64,000 bases of DNA from the human T2T-CHM13v2.0 reference genome, Homo sapiens. The notes under the pieces were generated by a model. It ran no database searches. It saw nothing but the letters and a program-made list of their open reading frames with translations, and was not told the origin of the DNA. The translations under genes were made by a program, and so were the position numbers. How positions within the stretch are numbered: position 1 is the first letter of the stretch; the number at the start of each line of letters is the position of its first letter. Location: the NCBI RefSeq assembly GCF_009914755.1, contig NC_060926.1. One strand, 5' to 3'. Below, piece after piece: positions 37,891 through 45,275 of the stretch.

Positions 37891-38647
37891 GCTTTACCAA
37901 TTATTTGTTTGGAAGCAGACTATGATTTCTCATCCTCTGCAGTGAATGCTGTTGTGGTAATAAGGAGGAGGAGGTTGACCATACTGTGTCTGTTTTTCAA
38001 TATTTTGGTAATGCTTCCTGATTCTCTTTTGGGGAATTGCCTTTCCCTTGTTTTAAGTGAAGATGCTGTGTCCCTGTCCCTCCCAAGCTCCCACCTGGCC
38101 CAATCTGACTTTGTCCCACCCAGGACATTGAATCTTAAACAGGCTGTGCAATAGCAAGAGGAGACAAATGACTGTGGCTGCTTCCTTCCCAGTGGTTGTG
38201 CACAACCAAGAAAGTGACTGGTTTGTGCTAATGCCCAGGTTCCAGTCCCTCTCAGAGCCTGGTTCTCCAACCTTCCTATCAGTTCTTTGAACCATCCAAT
38301 ATCAACCAGTAAATGTCTTTTCTGCTTAAGTTCTGTTGCCTAAAACCACAGAACCCTAAGTGAAACACAATGTGAGCCAGGCTACCTAAGTGCAAATGGG
38401 TTAAATGATGTGTCTGGAGCCTATAGGGAATTTTAGTTAATTGTGGAACCCTGAAACTCTAATGCCCAATTTACTGCAAAATGGATATGATGTAGAAATA
38501 ATTATTGGTGAAGAACATTTCCGTCCACAGCAATAATCATTGCCAAATGACATGCATCTTTTTTCTTCATTAAAATGTTTTGAATGTGCTTCTCTGTCCT
38601 GTGTAGGACATGGATGTATTTAGGAAAACATTTTGGGAAACTATCAC
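37891..38647 (+). repeat. Direct repeat copy 1 (757 bp), abutting the HERV-H 5' LTR
   Basis: gctttaccaattatttg...gggaaactatcac; near-identical to 44261-45023. Confidence 0.99.
38050..38368 (+). mobile_element. Old ERVL LTR fragment (LTR33/LTR16-like) inside the duplicated block (second copy ~44420-44744)
   Basis: ccaaccttcc...cagtaaatgtcttttctgcttaag...agaaccctaagtgaaaca resembles the LTR33-type 3' end. Confidence 0.5.
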
Positions 38648-39099
38648 TGTCAGGCCTCTGAGCCCAAGCGAAGCCATCGCATGCCCTGTGACTTGCACGT
38701 ATATGCCCAGATGGCCTGAAGTAACTGAAGAATCACAAAAGAAGTGAATATGCCCTGCCCCACCTTAACTGATGACATTCCACCACAAAAGAAGTGTAAA
38801 TGGCCGGTCCTTGCCTTAAGTGATGACATTACCTTGTGAAAGTCCTTTTCCTGGCTCATCCTGGTTCAGAAGCTCCCCCACTGTGCACCTTGCGACCCCC
38901 ACTCCTGCCTGCCAGAGAACAAACCCCCTTTGACTGTAATTTTCCTTTACCTCCCCAAATCCTATAAAACGGCCCCACCCTTATCTCCCTTCACTGACTC
39001 TCTTTTCGGACTCAGCCCGCCTGCACCCAGGTGAAATAAACAGCCATGTTGCTCACACAAAGCCTGTTTGGTGGTCTCTTCACACGGACGTGCATGAAA
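38648..39099 (+). promoter_or_regulatory. 5' LTR7 (U3-R-U5) promoter/enhancer
   Basis: TGTCAGGCCTCTGAGCCC...GCATGAAA; TATAAA 38963; AATAAA 39035; ACAAAAGA motifs at 38735 and 38785. Confidence 0.95.
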
Positions 39100-39101
39100 T
39101 T

Positions 39102-39119
39102 TGGTGCCGTGACTGGGAT
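39102..39119 (+). other. Primer-binding site complementary to tRNA-His 3' end
   Basis: TGGTGCCGTGACTGGGAT vs canonical TGGTGCCGTGACTCGGAT (1 mismatch). Confidence 0.92.
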
Positions 39120-39242
39120 TGGGGGACCTCCCTTGGGAGATCAATCCCCTGTCCTCCTGCTCTTTGCTCTGTGAGAAAGATCCACCTACGACCTCAGGTC
39201 CTCAGACCGACCAGCCCAAGAAACATCTCACCAATTTCAATT

Positions 39243-39251
39243 CCGGTAAGT
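39243..39251 (+). promoter_or_regulatory. HERV-H major splice donor (CCG|GTAAGT)
   Basis: Strong GTAAGT donor ~145 nt after the 5' LTR, the usual HERV-H position. Confidence 0.75.
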
Positions 39252-39532
39252 GGCCTCTTTTTACTCTCTTCTCCAGCTTCCCTCACTATCCCACAACCTC
39301 TTTCTCCTTTCAATCTTGATGCCACACTTCAATCTCTTCCTTCTCTTAATTTCAATTCCTTTCATTTTCTGGTAGAGACAAAGGAGACACGTTTTATCCG
39401 TGGACCCAAAACTCCCACGCCAGTCACGGACTGGGAAGGCAGCCTTCCCTTGGTGTTTAATCATTACAGGGACGCCTCTGATTGTTCACCCACTTTTCAA
39501 AGGTGTCAGACCATGCAGGGACGCCTGCCTTG

Positions 39533-39755
39533 GTCCTTCACCCTTAGCGGCAAGTTCCGCTTTTCTGGGGAAGGGGCAAATACCCCAACCCCTTCTCTCC
39601 TTGTCTCTACTCCTTCTCTGCTTTTCTGGGAGAGGGGTAAGTACCCCTCAACCCCTTCTCCTTCACCCTTAGCGGCAAGTCCCGCTTTTCTGGGGCAGGG
39701 GCAAATACCCCTCAACCCCTTCTCCTTCACCCTTAGCGGCAAGTCCCGCTTTCCT
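39533..39755 (+). repeat. HERV-H leader internal repeats (tccttcacccttagcggcaagt... x3)
   Basis: Three copies visible near 39534, 39659 and 39723. Confidence 0.85.
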
Positions 39756-40818
39756 AGGGGGCAAGAACCCCCCAGTCGCTTATTTCCGCACCCCAACCTC
39801 TTATCTCTGTGCCCCAATCCCTTATTTCTGCACCCTGACCTCTTATCTGTGCCCCAATCCCTTATTTCCGTGCTCCAACCCCTTCTCTGCTTTTCTGGAG
39901 GGCAAGAACCCCCCACCCCTTCTCCATGTCTCTACTCTTTTCTCTGGGCTTGCCTCCTTCACTATGGGTAAGCTTCCACCTTCCGTTCCTCCTTCTTCTC
40001 CCTTAGCCTGTGTTCTCAAAAACTTAAAACCTCTTCAACACACACCTGACCTATAAATGCCTTATTTTCTTCTGCAATGCCGCTTGACCACAATACAAAC
40101 TCGACAGTAGTTCCAAATGGCCGGAAAACGGCACTTTCAATTTTTCCATCCTACAAGATCTAAATAATTCTTGTCGTAAAATAGGCAAATGGTCTGAGAT
40201 GCCTGACGTCCAGGCATTCTTTTACACATCAGTCCCTTCCTAGTCTCTGTGCCCAGTGCAACTCGTCCCAAATCTTCCTTCTTTCCCTCCCGGCTGTCCC
40301 CTCAGTCCCAACCCCAAGTATCGCTGAGTCTTTTTAATCTTCCTTTTCTACAGACCCATCTGACCTCTCCCCTCCTCACCAGCCCAAGCTAGGTCCCAAT
40401 TCTTCCTCAGCCTCCGCTCCTCCACCCTATAATCCTTTTATCACCTCCCCTCCTCACACCTGGTTGGGCTTACAGTTTCGTTCTGTGACTAGCCCTCCCC
40501 CACCTGCCCAGCAATTTACTCTTAAAAAGGTGGCTGGAGCCAAAGGCATAGTCAAGGTTAATGCTCCTTTTTCTTTATCCCAAATCTGATAGCTTTTAGG
40601 CTCTTTTTCATCAAATATAAAAACCCAGCCCAGTTCATGGCTCATTCGGCGGCAACCCTGAGACGCTTTACAGCCCTAGACCCTAAAAGGTCAAAAGGCC
40701 ATCTTATTCTCAGTATACATTTTATTACTCAATCTGCTCCCGACATTAAATAAAACTCCAAAAATTAGAATCTGGCCCTCAAACCCCACAACAGGACTTA
40801 ATTAACCTCACCTTCAAG

Positions 40819-41172
40819 GTGTACAATAATAAAAAAAAAAAGTTGCAATTCCTTGCCTCCACTGCGAGACAAACCCCAGCCACATCTCCAGCACACAAGA
40901 ACTTCCAAACGCCTGAACTACAGTGGCCAGGCGTTCCTCCAGAACCTCCTCCCCAAGGAGCTTGCTACAAGTGCCAGAAATCTGGCCACCAGGCCAAGGA
41001 ATGCCTGCAGCCCAGGATTCCTCCTAAGCCGCGTCCCATCTGTGCAGGACCCCACTGGAGATCAGACTATTCAACTTACCTGGCAGCCACTCCCAGAGCC
41101 CCTGGAACTCTGGCCCAAGGCTCTCTGACTGACTCCTTCTTGGCTTACCGGCTGAAGACTGACGCTGCCTGA
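40819..41172 (+). pseudogene. gag: HERV-H gag remnant (nucleocapsid)
   Basis: CYKCQKSGHQAKEC CCHC knuckle; second knuckle degenerate (RPICAGPHWRSDY). Confidence 0.88.
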
Positions 41173-41228
41173 TCGCCTGGGAAGCCCTGTAGACCATCAC
41201 GGATGCCGAGCTTTAGGTAACTCTCACA

Positions 41229-43400
41229 GTGGAAGGTAAGTCCGTCCTCTTCTTAATCAATATGGAGGCTACCCACTCCACATTACCTTCTTTTCAAGGG
41301 CCTGTTTCCCTTGCCTCCATAACTGTTGTGGGTATCGACAGCCAGGCTTCTAAGCCTCTTAAAACTCCCCAACTCTGGTGCCAACTTAAACAACACTCTT
41401 TTATGCACTCTTTTTTAATTATCTCCACCTGCCCAGTTCCCTTATTAGGCCGAGATATTTTAACCAAATTATCTGCTTCCCTGACTATTCCTGGACTATA
41501 GCTGCATCTCATTGATGCCCTTCTTCCCAATCCAAAGCCTCCTTTGCTTCCTCCTCTTGTATTCCCCCACCTTAACCCACAAGTATAAGATACCTCTACT
41601 CCCTCCTTGGCGACCGATCATGCACCCCTTACCATCTCATTAAAACCTAATCACCCTTACCCCACTCAACGCCAATATCCCATCCCACAGCACACTTTAA
41701 AAAGATTAAAGCCTGTTATCACTCGCCTGCTACAACATGGCCTTTTAAAGCCTATAAACTCTCCTTAGGATTCCTCCATTTTACCTGTCCTAAAACCAGA
41801 CAAGTCTTACAGATTAGTTCAGGATCTGCGTCTTATCAACCAAATTGTTTTGCCTATCCACCCTGTGGTGCCCAACCTGTACACTCTTTTGTCCTCAATA
41901 CCTTCCTCCACAACTCACGATTCCGTGCTTGATCTTAAAGATGCTTTTTTCACTATTCCCCTTCACCCCTCGTCCCAGCCTCTTCGCTTTCACTTAGACT
42001 GACCCTGACACCCATTAGGCCCAGCAAATTACCAAGGCTGTACTGCCGCAAGGCTTTATAGACAGCCCCCATTACTTCAGTCAAGCCCAAATTTCTTCCT
42101 CATCTGTTACCTATCTCGGCATAATTCTCATAAAAACACACGTGCTCTCCCTGCCAATCGTGTCCGACTGATCTCTCAAACCCAAGCACCTTCTACAAAA
42201 CAACAACTCCTTTCCTTCCTAGGTATGGTTAGTGCGGTCAGAATTCTTACACAAGAGCCAGGACCGCACCCTGTAGCCTTTCTGTCCAAACAACTTGACC
42301 TTACTGTTTTAGCCTAGCCCTCATGTCTGCGTGCAGTGGCTGCCGCTGCTTTAATACTTTTAGAGGCCCTCAAAATCACAAACTATGCTCAACTCACTCT
42401 CTACAGTTCCATAACTTCCAAAATCTATTTTCTTCCTCATACCTGATGCATATACTTTCTGCTTCCTGGCTCCTTCAGCTGTACTCACTCTTTGTTAAGT
42501 CCCACAATTACCATTGTTCCTGGCCCAGACTTCAATCTGGCCTCCCACATTATTCCTGATACCACACCTGACCCCCATGACTGTATGTCTCTGATCCACC
42601 TGATATTCACCCCATTTCCCTATATTTCCTTCTTTCCTGTTCCTCACCCTGATCATGCTTGATTTATTGATGGCAGTTCCACCAGGCCTAATCGCCTCAC
42701 ACCACCAAAGGCAGGCTATGCTATAGTACAAGCCACTAGCCCACCTCTCAGAACCTCTCATTTCCTTTCCATCGTGGAAATCTATCCTCAAGGAAATAAC
42801 TCCTCAGTGTTCCATCTGCTATTCTACTACTACTCCTGGATTATTCAAGCCCCCTCCCTTCCCTACACATCAAGCTTGAGGATTTGCCCCCACCCAGGAC
42901 TGGCAAATCAGCTTTACTCAACATGTCCGGAGTCAGGAAACTAAAATACCTCTTAGTCTAAATAGACACTTTCACTGAATAAGTAAAGGCCTTTCCTACA
43001 GGGTCTGAGAAGGCCACCACAGTCATTTCTTCCCTTCTGTCAGACATAATTCCTCAGTTTAGCCTTCCCACCTCTATACAGTCTGATAACAGACCGGCCT
43101 TTATTAGTCAAATCAGCCAAGCAGTTTTTCAGGCTCTTAGTATTCAGTGAAACCTTTATATCCCTTACAGTCCTCAGTCTTCAAGAAAAGTAGAACGGAC
43201 TAAAGGTCTTTTAAAAACACACCTCGCCAAGCTCAGCCACCAACTTAAAAAGGACTGGACAATACTTTTACCACTTTCGCTTCTCAGAATTCAGGCCTGT
43301 CCTCAGAATGCTACAAGGCACAGCCCATTTAAGCTCCTGTATAGACGCTCCTTTTTATTAGGCCCCAGTCTCATTCGACACCAGACCAACTTAGACTGTG
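41229..43400 (+). pseudogene. pol: HERV-H pro-pol remnant, deleted and disrupted
   Basis: Protease-like FLINMEATHS (catalytic DTG lost) and LLGRD; RT QDLRLIN and LDLKDAFF; RNase H IDGSS; integrase-like DWQ segment; many stops. Confidence 0.85.
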
Positions 43401-43844
43401 CCCCAAAAAAACTTGTCATCCCTACTATCTTTTTTCTAGTCATACTCCTATTCACTGTTCTCAACTACTCATACATGCCCTGCTCTTGTTTACACTGCTG
43501 GTTTACACTGTTTCTCCAAGCCATCACAGCTGATATCTACCTTTTATACCTGTTTTTCTCCTTCTCTTATTCCATTTAGTTTTTCAATTCATACAAAACC
43601 GTATCCAGGCCATCACCAATCATTCTATATGACAAATGTTTCTTCTAACAACCCCACAATATCACCCCTTACCACAAGACCTCCCTTCAGCTTAATCTCT
43701 CCCGCTCTAGGTTCCCACGCCGCCCCTAATCCCGCTTGAAGCAGCCCTGAGAAACATCACCCATTCTCTCTCCATACCACCCCCCAAAAATTTTCACTGC
43801 CCCAACACTTCAACACTATTTTGTTTTATTTTTCTTATTAATAT

Positions 43845-43857
43845 AAGAAGGCAGGAA
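43845..43857 (+). other. Polypurine tract
   Basis: aagaaggcaggaa immediately before the TG of the 3' LTR. Confidence 0.8.
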
Positions 43858-44263
43858 TGTCAGGCCTCTGAGCCCAAGCCAAGCCATCGCATCCCCTGTG
43901 ACTTGCACGTATACACCCAGATGGCCTGAAGTAACTGAAGAATCACAAAAGAAGTGAATATGCCCTGCCCCACCTTGACTGATGACATTCCACCACAAAA
44001 GAAGTGTAAACGGCCAGTCCTTGCCTTAAGTGATGACATTACCTTATGAAAGTCCTTTTCCTGGCTCATTCTCACTCAAAAACACCCCCACTGAGCACCT
44101 TGCGACCCCCACTCCTGCCCGCCAGAGAACAAACCCCCTTTGACTGTAATTTTCCTTTACCTACCCAAATCCTATAAAACGGCCCCACCTTTATCTCCCT
44201 TTGCTGACTCTCTTTTTGGACTCAGCCCGCCTGCACCCAGGTGAAATAAACAGCCATGTTGCT
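43858..44263 (+). mobile_element. 3' LTR7, truncated (last ~46 bp, approximately U5, missing)
   Basis: Colinear with 38648-39053; stops at ...aataaacagccatgttGCT. Confidence 0.96.
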
Positions 44264-45023
44264 TTACCAATTATTTGTTTGGAAGCAGACTATGATTTCT
44301 CATCCTCTGCAGTGAATGCTGTTGTGGTAATAAGGAGGAGGAGGTTGACCATACTGTGTCTGTTTTTCAATATTTTGGTAATGCTTCCTGATTCTCTTTT
44401 GGGGAATTGCCTTTCCCTTGTTTTAAGTGAAGATGCTGTGTCCCTGTCCCTCCCAAGCTCCCACCTGGCCCAATCTGACTCTGTCCCACCCAGGACATTG
44501 AATCTTAAACAGGCTGTGCAATAGCAAGAGGAGACAAATGACTGTGGCTGCTTCCTTCCCAGTGGTTGTGCACAACCAAGAAAGTGACTGGTTTGTGCTA
44601 ATGCCCAGGTTCCAGTCCCTCTCAGAGCCTGGTTCTCCAACCTTCCTATCAGTTCTTTGAACCATCCAATAATCAACCAGTAAATGTCTTTTCTGCTTAA
44701 GTTAAGTTCTGTTGCCTACAACCACAGAACCCTAAGTGAAACACAATGTGAGCCAGGCTACCTAAGTGCAAATGGGTTAAATGATGTGTCTGGAGCCTAT
44801 AGGGAACTTTAGTTAATTGTGGAACCCTGAGACTCTAATGCCCAATTTACTGCAAAATGGATATGATGTAGAAATAATTATTGGTGAAGAACATTTCCGT
44901 CCACAGCAATAATCATTGCCAAATGACATGCATCTTTTTTCTTCATTAAAATGTTTTGAATGTGCTTCTCTGTCCTGTGTAGGACATGGATGTATTTAGG
45001 AAAACATTTTGGGAAACTATCAC
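44261..45023 (+). repeat. Direct repeat copy 2 (763 bp)
   Basis: Matches 37891-38647 apart from 4 substitutions and two indels of 1 bp and 5 bp (manual comparison). Confidence 0.99.
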
Positions 45024-45275
45024 CATACAGCCAACCTCTGTGTTAGACTTAAACATTAATATTGCAAAATCTTTTATTTCTCCTAATAAATACTGCCTAA
45101 TCTTAACATTGCTGAAACCCAACCACATGAATCATACTTTATATGTGATAGTTTATGTCGATGATGGGATTTTTTTTTCTCCCCTTTAAAGTTCTGGACT
45201 GAAAAGAGAGTGGAACAAGAACTACCAAGTACCCAGAACAGTCCTGAAGGCCCATTAGGCCACGGGGGATGAGCC

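What the first reader, a model, noticed from the sequence alone, without database searches (positions are those of the whole stretch)
37891..45023. HERV-H provirus bracketed by a ~760-bp host duplication instead of a 5-bp TSD
Seen: 37891-38647 ends exactly at the TG of the 5' LTR. It reappears at 44261-45023 directly after a broken 3' LTR, and then unique sequence resumes (ctatcac|catacag). One proviral end is canonical and the other is not. Known: gammaretrovirus-like integration gives 4-6 bp TSDs; large duplications occur when only one end is joined by integrase. Inference, three models: (a) one-ended aberrant integration; (b) later template switching that left the 3' LTR at GCT, copied the upstream flank, and returned via the original 5-bp TSD (ATCAC) as microhomology; (c) copying from an empty homologue while the provirus was polymorphic.
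Basis: partly seen in the sequence, partly recalled or inferred. Interest (0 to 1): 0.85.

Follow-up and report, generated by a model that had tools for sequence, protein, structure and literature searches.

The report
Old provirus, young flanking duplication
An ancient HERV-H provirus on human chromosome 2 has lost the tip of its 3' LTR to a 760-bp copy of its own upstream flank, and sequence dating suggests this was a much later DNA-repair accident that only mimics a faulty viral integration.

Summary
Block 37891-38647 (757 bp) recurs at 44261-45023 (763 bp): 4 mismatches and 2 indels. The genome holds only these two copies. The first copy abuts the TG of a complete 452-bp 5' LTR. The second follows a 3' LTR cut after 406 bp, at a 3-nt GCT microhomology, and ends ATCAC|unique sequence.

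The structure matches published one-ended integrations, for which HERV-K precedents exist. The clocks disagree with that reading. The LTRs differ at 22 of 406 sites (5.4%), the flank copies at 4 of 757 (0.53%), Fisher p=2e-7. The LTR differences are mostly private point changes, and I found no conversion donor. The outer 220 and 192 bp of the flank copies are identical.

Best reading (about 0.6): a normally integrated provirus with a 5-bp ATCAC target-site duplication (TSD) was later repaired with a templated copy of its 5' flank. That repair used GCT and the TSD as microhomologies and removed 46 bp of U5.

Main rival (about 0.2): one-ended integration, with the flank copies later homogenised.

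Ape orthologues would decide, and no tool here holds them. Interest is moderate. It is a new member of known kinds.

The parts
37891..38647 (+). Copy A: the original 5' host flank (757 bp). It starts with GCT and ends with ATCAC directly before the 5' LTR.
   Evidence: Only two copies exist in the whole genome. It holds one CpG and is 41.6% G+C.
38643..38647 (+). ATCAC: the 5' copy of the inferred 5-bp target-site duplication. It is the only ATCAC in the 757 bp of A.
   Evidence: One search shows a single occurrence in A. A 5-bp TSD is the family rule: 4 of 4 solo LTRs (my reading of the flanks printed) and 14 of 20 sampled proviruses with identical 5-mers.
38648..39099 (+). Complete 5' LTR (452 bp, TGTCAGG...CATGAAA), with AATAAA at 39035-39040.
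   Evidence: It is 96-97% identical to the best other genomic LTR copies (40 of 2848 candidates scored).
39102..39119 (+). Primer-binding-site-like sequence TGGTGCCGTGACTGGGAT, 2 nt after the LTR.
   Evidence: Sequence. The same TTGGTGCC follows 13 of 29 other LTR copies. The assignment to tRNA-His is recalled, not tested.
39100..43857 (+). Internal proviral region with broken gag-pro-pol remnants: zinc knuckle in ORF 40750-41172, protease in 41217-41501, and a reverse transcriptase fragment in 41769-42002. No env domain was detected.
   Evidence: Pfam hits in 3 of 14 plus-strand ORF fragments scanned. It is 89-94% identical to 30 other scored proviruses.
43858..44263 (+). 3' LTR, first 406 of 452 bp only (U3 and nearly all of R). 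AATAAA lies at 44245-44250. The break is 13 nt after AATAAA and 2-4 nt before the poly(A) addition site.
   Evidence: There are 22 mismatches and 0 gaps against the 5' LTR. The poly(A) site is placed by 12 poly(A)-tailed genomic copies.
44261..44263 (+). GCT: 3-nt junction microhomology shared by the LTR (39051-39053) and the start of A (37891-37893).
44261..45023 (+). Copy A' (763 bp): the duplicate of the 5' flank. It differs from A by 4 substitutions, +1 bp and +5 bp, and ends ATCAC at 45019-45023 before unique sequence.
45024..45060 (+). Start of the unique 3' flank (CATACAGCC...). Together with the end of A' it reads like the unoccupied site.

Best explanation
An HERV-H (LTR7-type) provirus integrated normally between ...GGGAAACTATCAC and CATACAG..., making a 5-bp ATCAC target-site duplication. 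It then sat there long enough for its two LTRs to diverge by 5.4%.

Much later a break or a stalled replication fork occurred in the last 46 bp (U5) of the 3' LTR. A rate of 1e-9 per site per year puts this at roughly 3 My ago, with a range of about 0.7-7 My. The LTR-side 3' end, trimmed to ...CATGTTGCT, annealed to a GCT 6.37 kb upstream, on the same or the sister chromatid, and primed copying of the 5' flank. The new strand rejoined the downstream side at the 5-nt ATCAC that the TSD provides at both proviral borders.

The net result is that 46 bp of U5 were replaced by a 752-757-bp copy of the upstream flank. This is a microhomology-mediated templated insertion of the FoSTeS/MMBIR or synthesis-dependent end-joining kind.

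Shown here: the anatomy, both microhomologies, the uniqueness of A, and the age gap. Inferred: the former complete 3' LTR with its TSD, the order of the steps, and which polymerase or pathway acted.
For: (1) Clock. The LTRs differ at 22 of 406 sites and the flank copies at 4 of 757. Fisher p=1.9e-7, and p=1.7e-5 when the 5 CpG-context LTR differences are left out (17 of 405). Transversions alone give 7 against 1, p=0.003. If A/A' had the LTRs' age, 24-41 differences would be expected. P(4 or fewer) is 5e-7 or less.

(2) The LTR clock looks sound. Each LTR is 96-97% identical to the best other genomic copies but only 94.6% to its partner. No near-identical donor was found. Of the 22 differences, 15 are private to one LTR (6 in the 5' LTR, 9 in the 3' LTR) against 29 other copies. 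No other provirus is more than 94% identical over any stretch, and the best full-length match is 92%. That excludes a recent DNA copy from elsewhere.

(3) Calibration within the family. In 17 sibling proviruses, LTR-LTR divergence over the same 406 bp has a median of 3.4%. Fifteen of the 17 are below this locus. A/A' (0.53%) equals the non-CpG value of the youngest siblings (0.49%).

(4) Homogenisation is not favoured. The six A/A' differences all lie at 38111-38455. The outer 220 and 192 bp, where conversion tracts should reach least, are identical. P of clean 50-bp edges at LTR-like divergence is 0.005-0.04. Published human LTR conversion tracts average 99 bp with a maximum of 450 bp (PMC4921805 passages). 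Only about 6% of human/macaque orthologous LTR pairs show any conversion (PMC4335370 Methods passage).

(5) Both junctions carry microhomology. ATCAC occurs once in A, at its end, so an end exposing the 3' TSD has one 5-nt partner in the copied block.

(6) A 5-bp TSD is the family norm.
Against: The structure alone is exactly what one-ended integration gives, with no coincidence needed. The late model requires the return junction to fall on the 5-bp TSD. I estimate that as an event of a few per cent at best, and this is reasoning, not a measurement.

Only 4 substitutions carry the young age. The Poisson 95% range is 0.14-1.35%.

Five of the six A/A' differences cluster in 155 bp (p=0.033). That could be an unconverted island in an old, otherwise homogenised repeat, rather than error-prone copying.

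A second provirus, on chromosome 6, is cut at the very same GCT. This hints at something specific to the viral end.

No outgroup sequence could be examined, so the ancestral complete 3' LTR is not shown.
Confidence: 0.6

Rival explanations
1. One-ended (aberrant) integration, the reader's model (a). Integrase joined only the U3 end of the 5' LTR. The other viral end, lacking U5, was trimmed and primed on host DNA 757 bp upstream through GCT. Host recombination then fixed it, duplicating the flank at the time of integration. The flank copies were later kept alike by gene conversion.
For: All four structural hallmarks described for experimental aberrant integrations are present: one normal junction, a truncated other end, short homology at the aberrant junction, and a direct host duplication of hundreds of bp (PMC5041404 results passage and Discussion). 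Germline precedents are in print: HERV-K(HML-2) 21q21.1, a 3'-truncated provirus with a 450-bp duplication, and solo LTRs with 250- and 61-bp duplications (PMC4422153 Discussion). The exact end of A' at the proviral border needs no coincidence. A second HERV-H provirus is cut at the same GCT.
Against: The flank copies are about 10 times less diverged than the LTRs, and the LTR differences behave as ordinary private mutations. Rescue by gene conversion must cover all 757 bp, including both edges, while leaving the nested 406-bp LTR pair at 5.4%. Published tracts are short and conversion is infrequent.
Confidence: 0.2
2. Exchange with, or copying from, an unoccupied allele while the provirus was still polymorphic, the reader's model (c). 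A filled chromatid broken at GCT in the 3' LTR was joined to an empty homologue at the GCT upstream of A.
For: It needs a single junction (GCT) and explains without coincidence why A' runs straight into the 3' flank.
Against: It dates the event to the short polymorphic phase after integration, so the clock argument against model (a) applies equally. No polymorphic HERVH insertion is known in humans, according to the Introduction of PMC8912925 (passage). A recent empty allele is therefore unlikely.
Confidence: 0.06
3. RNA-mediated origin: a read-through or LINE-1-mobilised HERV-H transcript ending at the 3' LTR poly(A) site was copied into the locus.
For: The 3' LTR break lies 2-4 nt before the poly(A) site defined by 12 poly(A)-tailed genomic copies.
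Against: There is no poly(A) tract at the junction. The 5' LTR has a full U3. No source provirus above 94% identity exists. The break is at GCT, not at any of the observed tail positions. Every RNA model I could draw leaves either two proviruses or a solo LTR after A'.
Confidence: 0.03
4. Assembly artefact, or integration into a pre-existing tandem duplication followed by a deletion.
For: None specific to this locus.
Against: The two copies differ at six places, including a 5-bp indel. RefSeq functional elements in the supplied annotation span the LTR/A' junction (44087-45009). A pre-existing duplication would be older than the provirus, the opposite of what is seen, and it would need a deletion ending exactly at the start of A'.
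Confidence: 0.03

Closest known systems
Aberrant one-ended retroviral integration (ASLV vectors with a bad U5 end; HIV-1 with suboptimal integrase inhibitors or integrase mutants). Source: PMC5041404, read.
   Same: One canonical virus-host junction, the other viral end truncated, short homology at the aberrant junction, and a direct duplication of hundreds of bp of flanking host DNA.
   Different: There the duplication arises at integration. Here the duplicated flank is about 10 times younger than the LTR pair.
HERV-K(HML-2) loci with long flanking repeats: the 21q21.1 3'-truncated provirus (450-bp duplication), and solo LTRs at 7p21.2 (250 bp) and 6q21.1 (61 bp). Source: PMC4422153 Discussion.
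   Same: A germline provirus with a truncated 3' end and a duplication of several hundred bp in place of a short TSD.
   Different: Those belong to a different family and are human-specific and young, so the ages of integration and duplication cannot be separated. The paper attributes them to inefficient integration. I did not examine those loci myself.
Microhomology-mediated templated insertions and duplications (FoSTeS/MMBIR, synthesis-dependent MMEJ). Named from my own knowledge; no paper on them was read here.
   Same: Two junctions with 3- and 5-nt microhomology, a template a few kb away in cis, and a small deletion (46 bp) at the acceptor site.
   Different: One microhomology is the provirus's own target-site duplication. 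The product therefore imitates an unoccupied site next to the provirus.
Poly(A)-tailed (LINE-1-type) retrocopies of HERV transcripts. Seen here for the HERV-H LTR at 12 loci. For HERV-W I saw only the title and abstract listing of PMC5016936.
   Same: A 3' LTR that ends near the R/U5 border.
   Different: Those end 2-4 nt further on and carry a poly(A) tail. This locus has neither a tail nor a U3-less 5' end.

Membership tests
HERV-H / LTR7 provirus | LTRs of the LTR7 type | tested here: met
   Both LTRs are 96-97% identical to many genomic copies. The 22-nt LTR start and the AATAAACAGCCATGTTGCT variant occur in the 'LTR7upcons' reporter sequence printed in the Methods of PMC8912925. I compared these by eye and made no alignment. 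The subfamily is not assigned.
HERV-H / LTR7 provirus | Gammaretrovirus-like gag-pro-pol interior shared with other family members | tested here: met
   Pfam finds zf-CCHC, RVP and RVT_1 on the plus strand. The interior is 89-94% identical to 30 other scored proviruses (31 of 1514 candidates scored, one being the locus itself).
HERV-H / LTR7 provirus | Primer-binding site for tRNA-His | not tested
   The sequence TGGTGCCGTGACTGGGAT is present at 39102-39119. The match to tRNA-His is recalled.
HERV-H / LTR7 provirus | 5-bp target-site duplication | tested here: inconclusive
   It is the family rule (4 of 4 solo LTRs; 14 of 20 proviruses). At this locus only ATCAC at the end of A and of A' is visible. 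Whether the second one is the original 3' TSD cannot be told.
Aberrant one-ended integration product | One canonical junction and one truncated viral end with short junction homology | tested here: met
Aberrant one-ended integration product | Direct duplication of hundreds to thousands of bp of the host flank | tested here: met
   757 and 763 bp.
Aberrant one-ended integration product | Duplication formed at integration, so flank copies should be as diverged as the LTRs | tested here: not met
   0.53% against 5.4%, Fisher p=1.9e-7. P(4 or fewer differences) is 5e-7 or less at LTR-like divergence.
Microhomology-mediated templated insertion (FoSTeS/MMBIR-like) | Microhomology at the junctions and a nearby template in cis | tested here: met
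   GCT (3 nt) and ATCAC (5 nt). The template lies 6370 bp upstream.
Microhomology-mediated templated insertion (FoSTeS/MMBIR-like) | The event post-dates the provirus | tested here: met
   By the molecular clock only.
Microhomology-mediated templated insertion (FoSTeS/MMBIR-like) | Ancestral allele with a complete 3' LTR and TSD | not testable with these tools
   No primate genome other than the window's own is held.

The most novel reading that the evidence does not exclude
The locus is a germline fossil of a defective HERV-H reverse transcript that lacked U5 at its right end. It was inserted by integrase at one end only and by host repair at the other. The same GCT break recurs in a second provirus on chromosome 6, 2-4 nt before the poly(A) site, and would mark a preferred end of incomplete HERV-H DNA. 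The low divergence of the 757-bp flank repeats would then show unusually efficient concerted evolution of short repeats 6 kb apart in the hominoid germline.
Probability: 0.15. Interest if true: 0.6.

Novelty: new member of a known kind. Interest (0 to 1): 0.35.

Why it matters
The locus is a worked example of a general point. A large 'TSD-like' duplication around an endogenous retrovirus is not by itself proof of aberrant integration. Comparing flank-repeat divergence with LTR divergence can separate events at integration from later rearrangements.

If the late model holds, the provirus's own 5-bp TSD served as repair microhomology. The result is a junction (A'|3' flank) that reads exactly like an unoccupied site.

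The 757-bp direct repeats could also recombine and delete the provirus without leaving a solo LTR. That would produce an allele indistinguishable from a pre-integration allele, a possible trap for calls of insertional polymorphism.

The event removed U5 and the sequence downstream of the 3' LTR poly(A) signal. It lies in a provirus whose two LTR regions are annotated as enhancers in the supplied RefSeq table.

Tried and rejected
- Recent DNA copy from another provirus: rejected. No other copy exceeds 94% identity over any stretch, and the best full-length match is 92%.
- LTR divergence inflated by ectopic conversion: no donor was found, and both LTRs are equally distant from their relatives.
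- L1-type retrocopy: rejected. There is no poly(A) tract and U3 is complete.
- Is a break at GCT enriched genome-wide? Two of 658 copies of the 19-mer are followed by four non-LTR bases. At two control sites in the same LTR the figure is 0 of 1217 and 0 of 990. At the neighbouring site GCTCA it is 0, with the denominator not measured. One-sided p=0.053, or 0.23 once the index locus is left out. This is not significant.
- The chromosome 6 provirus was checked for a flank duplication. None was found in 18 kb.
- Clustering of the A/A' differences: all six lie within 345 bp (p=0.07), and five lie within 155 bp (p=0.033). Too weak to build on.
- Literature on this locus: HERVH+MEIS1+LTR7 gave one preprint that does not treat the locus. 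Searches on HERV-H with TSD, rearrangement or template switching and on long direct repeats around ERVs gave no description of this locus or of a post-integration flank duplication. Supplementary tables of the HERV-H papers were not opened and could list the locus.


Full report
**Observation**

The window holds a 5.6-kb provirus on the plus strand. Its 5' LTR is complete: 38648-39099, 452 bp, from TGTCAGG to CATGAAA. Two bases later comes a primer-binding-site-like TGGTGCCGTGACTGGGAT. The interior carries broken gag, protease and polymerase remnants. Pfam finds zf-CCHC, RVP and RVT_1 in 3 of 14 plus-strand ORF fragments scanned.

The 3' LTR begins at 43858 and matches the 5' LTR without gaps for 406 bp. 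At 44261-44263 (GCT) it passes into a copy of the host sequence that lies upstream of the 5' LTR. Copy A is 37891-38647 (757 bp). Copy A' is 44261-45023 (763 bp). They differ by 4 substitutions, a 1-bp indel and a 5-bp tandem duplication.

A ends ATCAC|TGTCAGG. A' ends ATCAC|CATACAG, and unique sequence follows. The 46 bp of LTR that are missing (39054-39099) are not found in A' or in the 19 kb downstream.

**Identity of the element**

No tool names the family. The name HERV-H/LTR7 rests on three things:
- Both LTRs are 96-97% identical to many genomic LTR copies.
- The interior is 89-94% identical to 30 other scored proviruses, out of 1514 first-look candidates of which 31 were scored, one being the locus itself.
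- The 22-nt LTR start and the variant AATAAACAGCCATGTTGCT both appear in the 'LTR7upcons' reporter sequence printed in the Methods of PMC8912925. I compared these by eye only.

The family's 5-bp target-site duplication (TSD) was checked directly. Four of four solo LTRs among 29 LTR copies have identical 5-mers at their borders. This is my reading of the flanks printed, once the LTR end is set at 452 bp; the script had set it one base too far. Fourteen of 20 sampled proviruses have identical flanking 5-mers. Two more differ at one base, and three of the remaining four are not true LTR pairs.

**What the structure alone says**

The anatomy is a point-for-point match to experimental one-ended integrations. 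The Hughes laboratory describes four features (PMC5041404, passages and the whole Discussion):
- one normal viral end;
- an aberrant end that is often truncated;
- a short segment of homology where host polymerases primed from the viral 3' end;
- duplications of flanking host DNA of hundreds or thousands of bp.

Germline precedents are also in print. [quoted passage not shown] They include a 3'-truncated provirus at 21q21.1 with a 450-bp duplication, and solo LTRs with 250- and 61-bp duplications. The authors ascribe these to inefficient integration. So this kind of structure is known, and a HERV-H case is not surprising by itself.

**What the clocks say**

[quoted passage not shown] If the flank duplication arose at the same moment, A/A' should be about as diverged as the LTRs. 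It is not.

| Comparison | LTR pair | A/A' | Test |
|---|---|---|---|
| All sites | 22 of 406 (5.4%) | 4 of 757 (0.53%) | Fisher p=1.9e-7 |
| Without the 5 CpG-context LTR differences | 17 of 405 | 4 of 757 | p=1.7e-5 |
| Also dropping TG/CA pairs that look like decayed CpGs | 13 of 405 | 4 of 757 | p=5e-4 |
| Transversions only | 7 | 1 | p=0.003 |

At LTR-like divergence, 24-41 differences would be expected in A/A'. P(4 or fewer) lies between 5e-7 and 2e-13.

At 1.0e-9 substitutions per site per year, the rate used for ERVs in PMC4335370 (Methods passage), the Jukes-Cantor ages are about 28 My for the LTRs and about 2.7 My for the duplication. The Poisson range for the duplication is 0.7-6.8 My.

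**Is the LTR clock trustworthy here?**

Three checks say yes.

1. Each LTR is closer to unrelated copies (96-97%) than to its partner (94.6%). The best outside hit is the same copy for both, and no near-identical donor exists. This star-like pattern is what independent decay predicts.
2. Of the 22 differing sites, 6 carry a state private to the 5' LTR and 9 a state private to the 3' LTR. Seven are ambiguous. The comparison set was 29 other copies. Those copies were the best matches to the 5' LTR, which biases against calling 5'-private states.
3. I sampled sibling proviruses that carry the same 19-mer in both LTRs. Twenty-six same-strand pairs 4-6 kb apart were picked from the first 100 of 658 listed matches. 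Three of the 20 share only 59 nt upstream of the motif and were dropped. In the other 17, divergence over the same 406 bp runs from 0.49 to 8.55%. The median is 3.44%, or 1.98% without CpG-context sites. I worked out these medians by hand from the rows, because the medians the script printed include the three dropped loci. Fifteen of the 17 are below this locus.

So this provirus is among the older members of its group. A/A' is as similar as the LTRs of the very youngest members. Even at the siblings' median non-CpG divergence, 15 differences would be expected in A/A' (P of 4 or fewer = 0.001).

PMC8912925 (passages) dates LTR7 waves by orthology at 25-40, 9-20 and 4-10 My ago. I did not assign this copy to a subfamily, so absolute ages remain rough. 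The ratio of 6-10 is the robust result.

**Could gene conversion have kept A and A' alike?**

This is the only way to save an integration-time origin. Several points weigh against it:
- The nested LTR pair is 5.2 kb apart, against 6.4 kb for A/A'. It was not homogenised.
- Published conversion tracts among human LTRs average 99 bp, with a maximum of 450 bp (PMC4921805).
- About 6% of human/macaque orthologous LTR pairs show any conversion (PMC4335370, citing Kijima and Innan 2010).
- Conversion should reach the edges of a repeat least. Here the outer 220 and 192 bp are identical and all six differences lie in the middle. The chance of clean 50-bp edges at LTR-like divergence is 0.005-0.04.

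One point weighs the other way. Five of the six differences fall within 155 bp (p=0.033). That could be an unconverted island, or it could be errors of the copying polymerase.

**Mechanism**

Every late model I could draw that starts from a normally integrated provirus gives the wrong product. This includes simple tandem duplication, LTR-homology-guided repair and RNA-templated copying. Each leaves a second provirus or a solo LTR after A'.

The exception is a return junction that uses the TSD. ATCAC occurs once in the 757 bp of A, at its very end. An end exposing the 3' TSD therefore has exactly one 5-nt partner in the copied block.

The proposed sequence of events is:
1. A break or fork stall occurs in U5 of the 3' LTR.
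2. The left 3' end is trimmed to ...GCT.
3. That end primes at the GCT 6370 bp upstream.
4. The flank is copied.
5. The new strand rejoins downstream at ATCAC.
6. Forty-six bp of U5 are lost.

Its weakness is that use of the TSD is a coincidence of perhaps a few per cent. One-ended integration needs no coincidence in structure but needs an unlikely homogenisation. Weighing the two, I put the late event at about 0.6 and one-ended integration at about 0.2. I put exchange with an empty allele at about 0.06. That model carries the same clock problem, and no polymorphic HERVH insertion is known in humans according to the Introduction of PMC8912925.

**The break point**

The 3' LTR ends 13 nt after AATAAA. 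Twelve genomic loci carry the same LTR sequence followed by CA, CAC, CC or CAT and then ten or more A. These are poly(A)-tailed retrocopies. They place the poly(A) site 2-4 nt beyond GCT. The break is thus almost at the R/U5 border, but there is no A tract.

Genome-wide, only one other copy of the 19-mer is followed by four non-LTR bases (2 of 658). It is a chromosome 6 provirus with 97% identical LTRs. It has no U5 remnant in the 6.1 kb downstream and no flank duplication in 18 kb.

Two control sites in the LTR gave 0 of 1217 and 0 of 990. The adjacent site gave 0. The excess is not significant: p=0.053, or 0.23 without the index locus. I leave it as unexplained. It is the main reason to keep the bolder reading alive, in which a U5-less viral DNA was inserted one-endedly.

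**Artefact**

The two copies differ at six positions. The supplied RefSeq table has a functional element (44087-45009) running across the LTR/A' junction. From my own knowledge, CHM13 is essentially one haplotype, so a merge of filled and empty haplotypes is not a plausible source.

**Verdict**

This is a real and tidy structural oddity whose kind is already known. The new point is the age gap. It argues that the duplication is a late microhomology-mediated repair product imitating an aberrant integration. The decisive test is the state of the orthologous locus in other primates, and that could not be run with the tools at hand.

Noticed in passing
G000:C6:95,042,116-95,042,138 (minus strand); loci L044-L046: A second HERV-H provirus has its 3' LTR cut at exactly the same GCT, followed by unrelated sequence. 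Its LTRs are 97% identical. There is no U5 remnant in the 6.1 kb downstream and no flank duplication within 18 kb.
   Followed up: partly
12 genomic loci listed (for example G000:C2:153,987,114; C8:116,946,627; C16:68,767,053): LTR7 sequence ending ...CATGTTGCT plus CA, CAC, CC or CAT, followed by ten or more A. These are poly(A)-tailed retrocopies of LTR-terminated transcripts, and they map the LTR poly(A) site 2-4 nt after GCT.
   Followed up: partly
Loci L051, L053, L055 (G000:C1:81.90 Mb, 108.51 Mb, 187.11 Mb): In 3 of 20 sampled pairs of the 19-mer about 5.2-5.3 kb apart (motif spacing 5207-5330 bp), the upstream copy shares only 59 nt with the 3' LTR. The 5' 'LTR' seems to start near R, as in processed (LINE-1-type) HERV copies.
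   Followed up: no
window 39534-39898: Several families of imperfect 21-125-bp direct repeats lie in the proviral leader just after the 5' LTR (families D4-D7).
   Followed up: no
window 38301-38455 and 44671-44831: Five of the six A/A' differences, including both indels, fall within 155 bp (p=0.033). This could be an old unconverted island or errors of the copying polymerase.
   Followed up: partly
window 37891-38647 and 44261-45023: The two 757-bp direct repeats could recombine and remove the provirus without leaving a solo LTR. The resulting allele would look like an unoccupied site.
   Followed up: no
window 38542-40435 and 43163-45009: The supplied RefSeq table marks enhancers over both LTR regions. 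The second one runs across the LTR/A' junction and most of A'.
   Followed up: no
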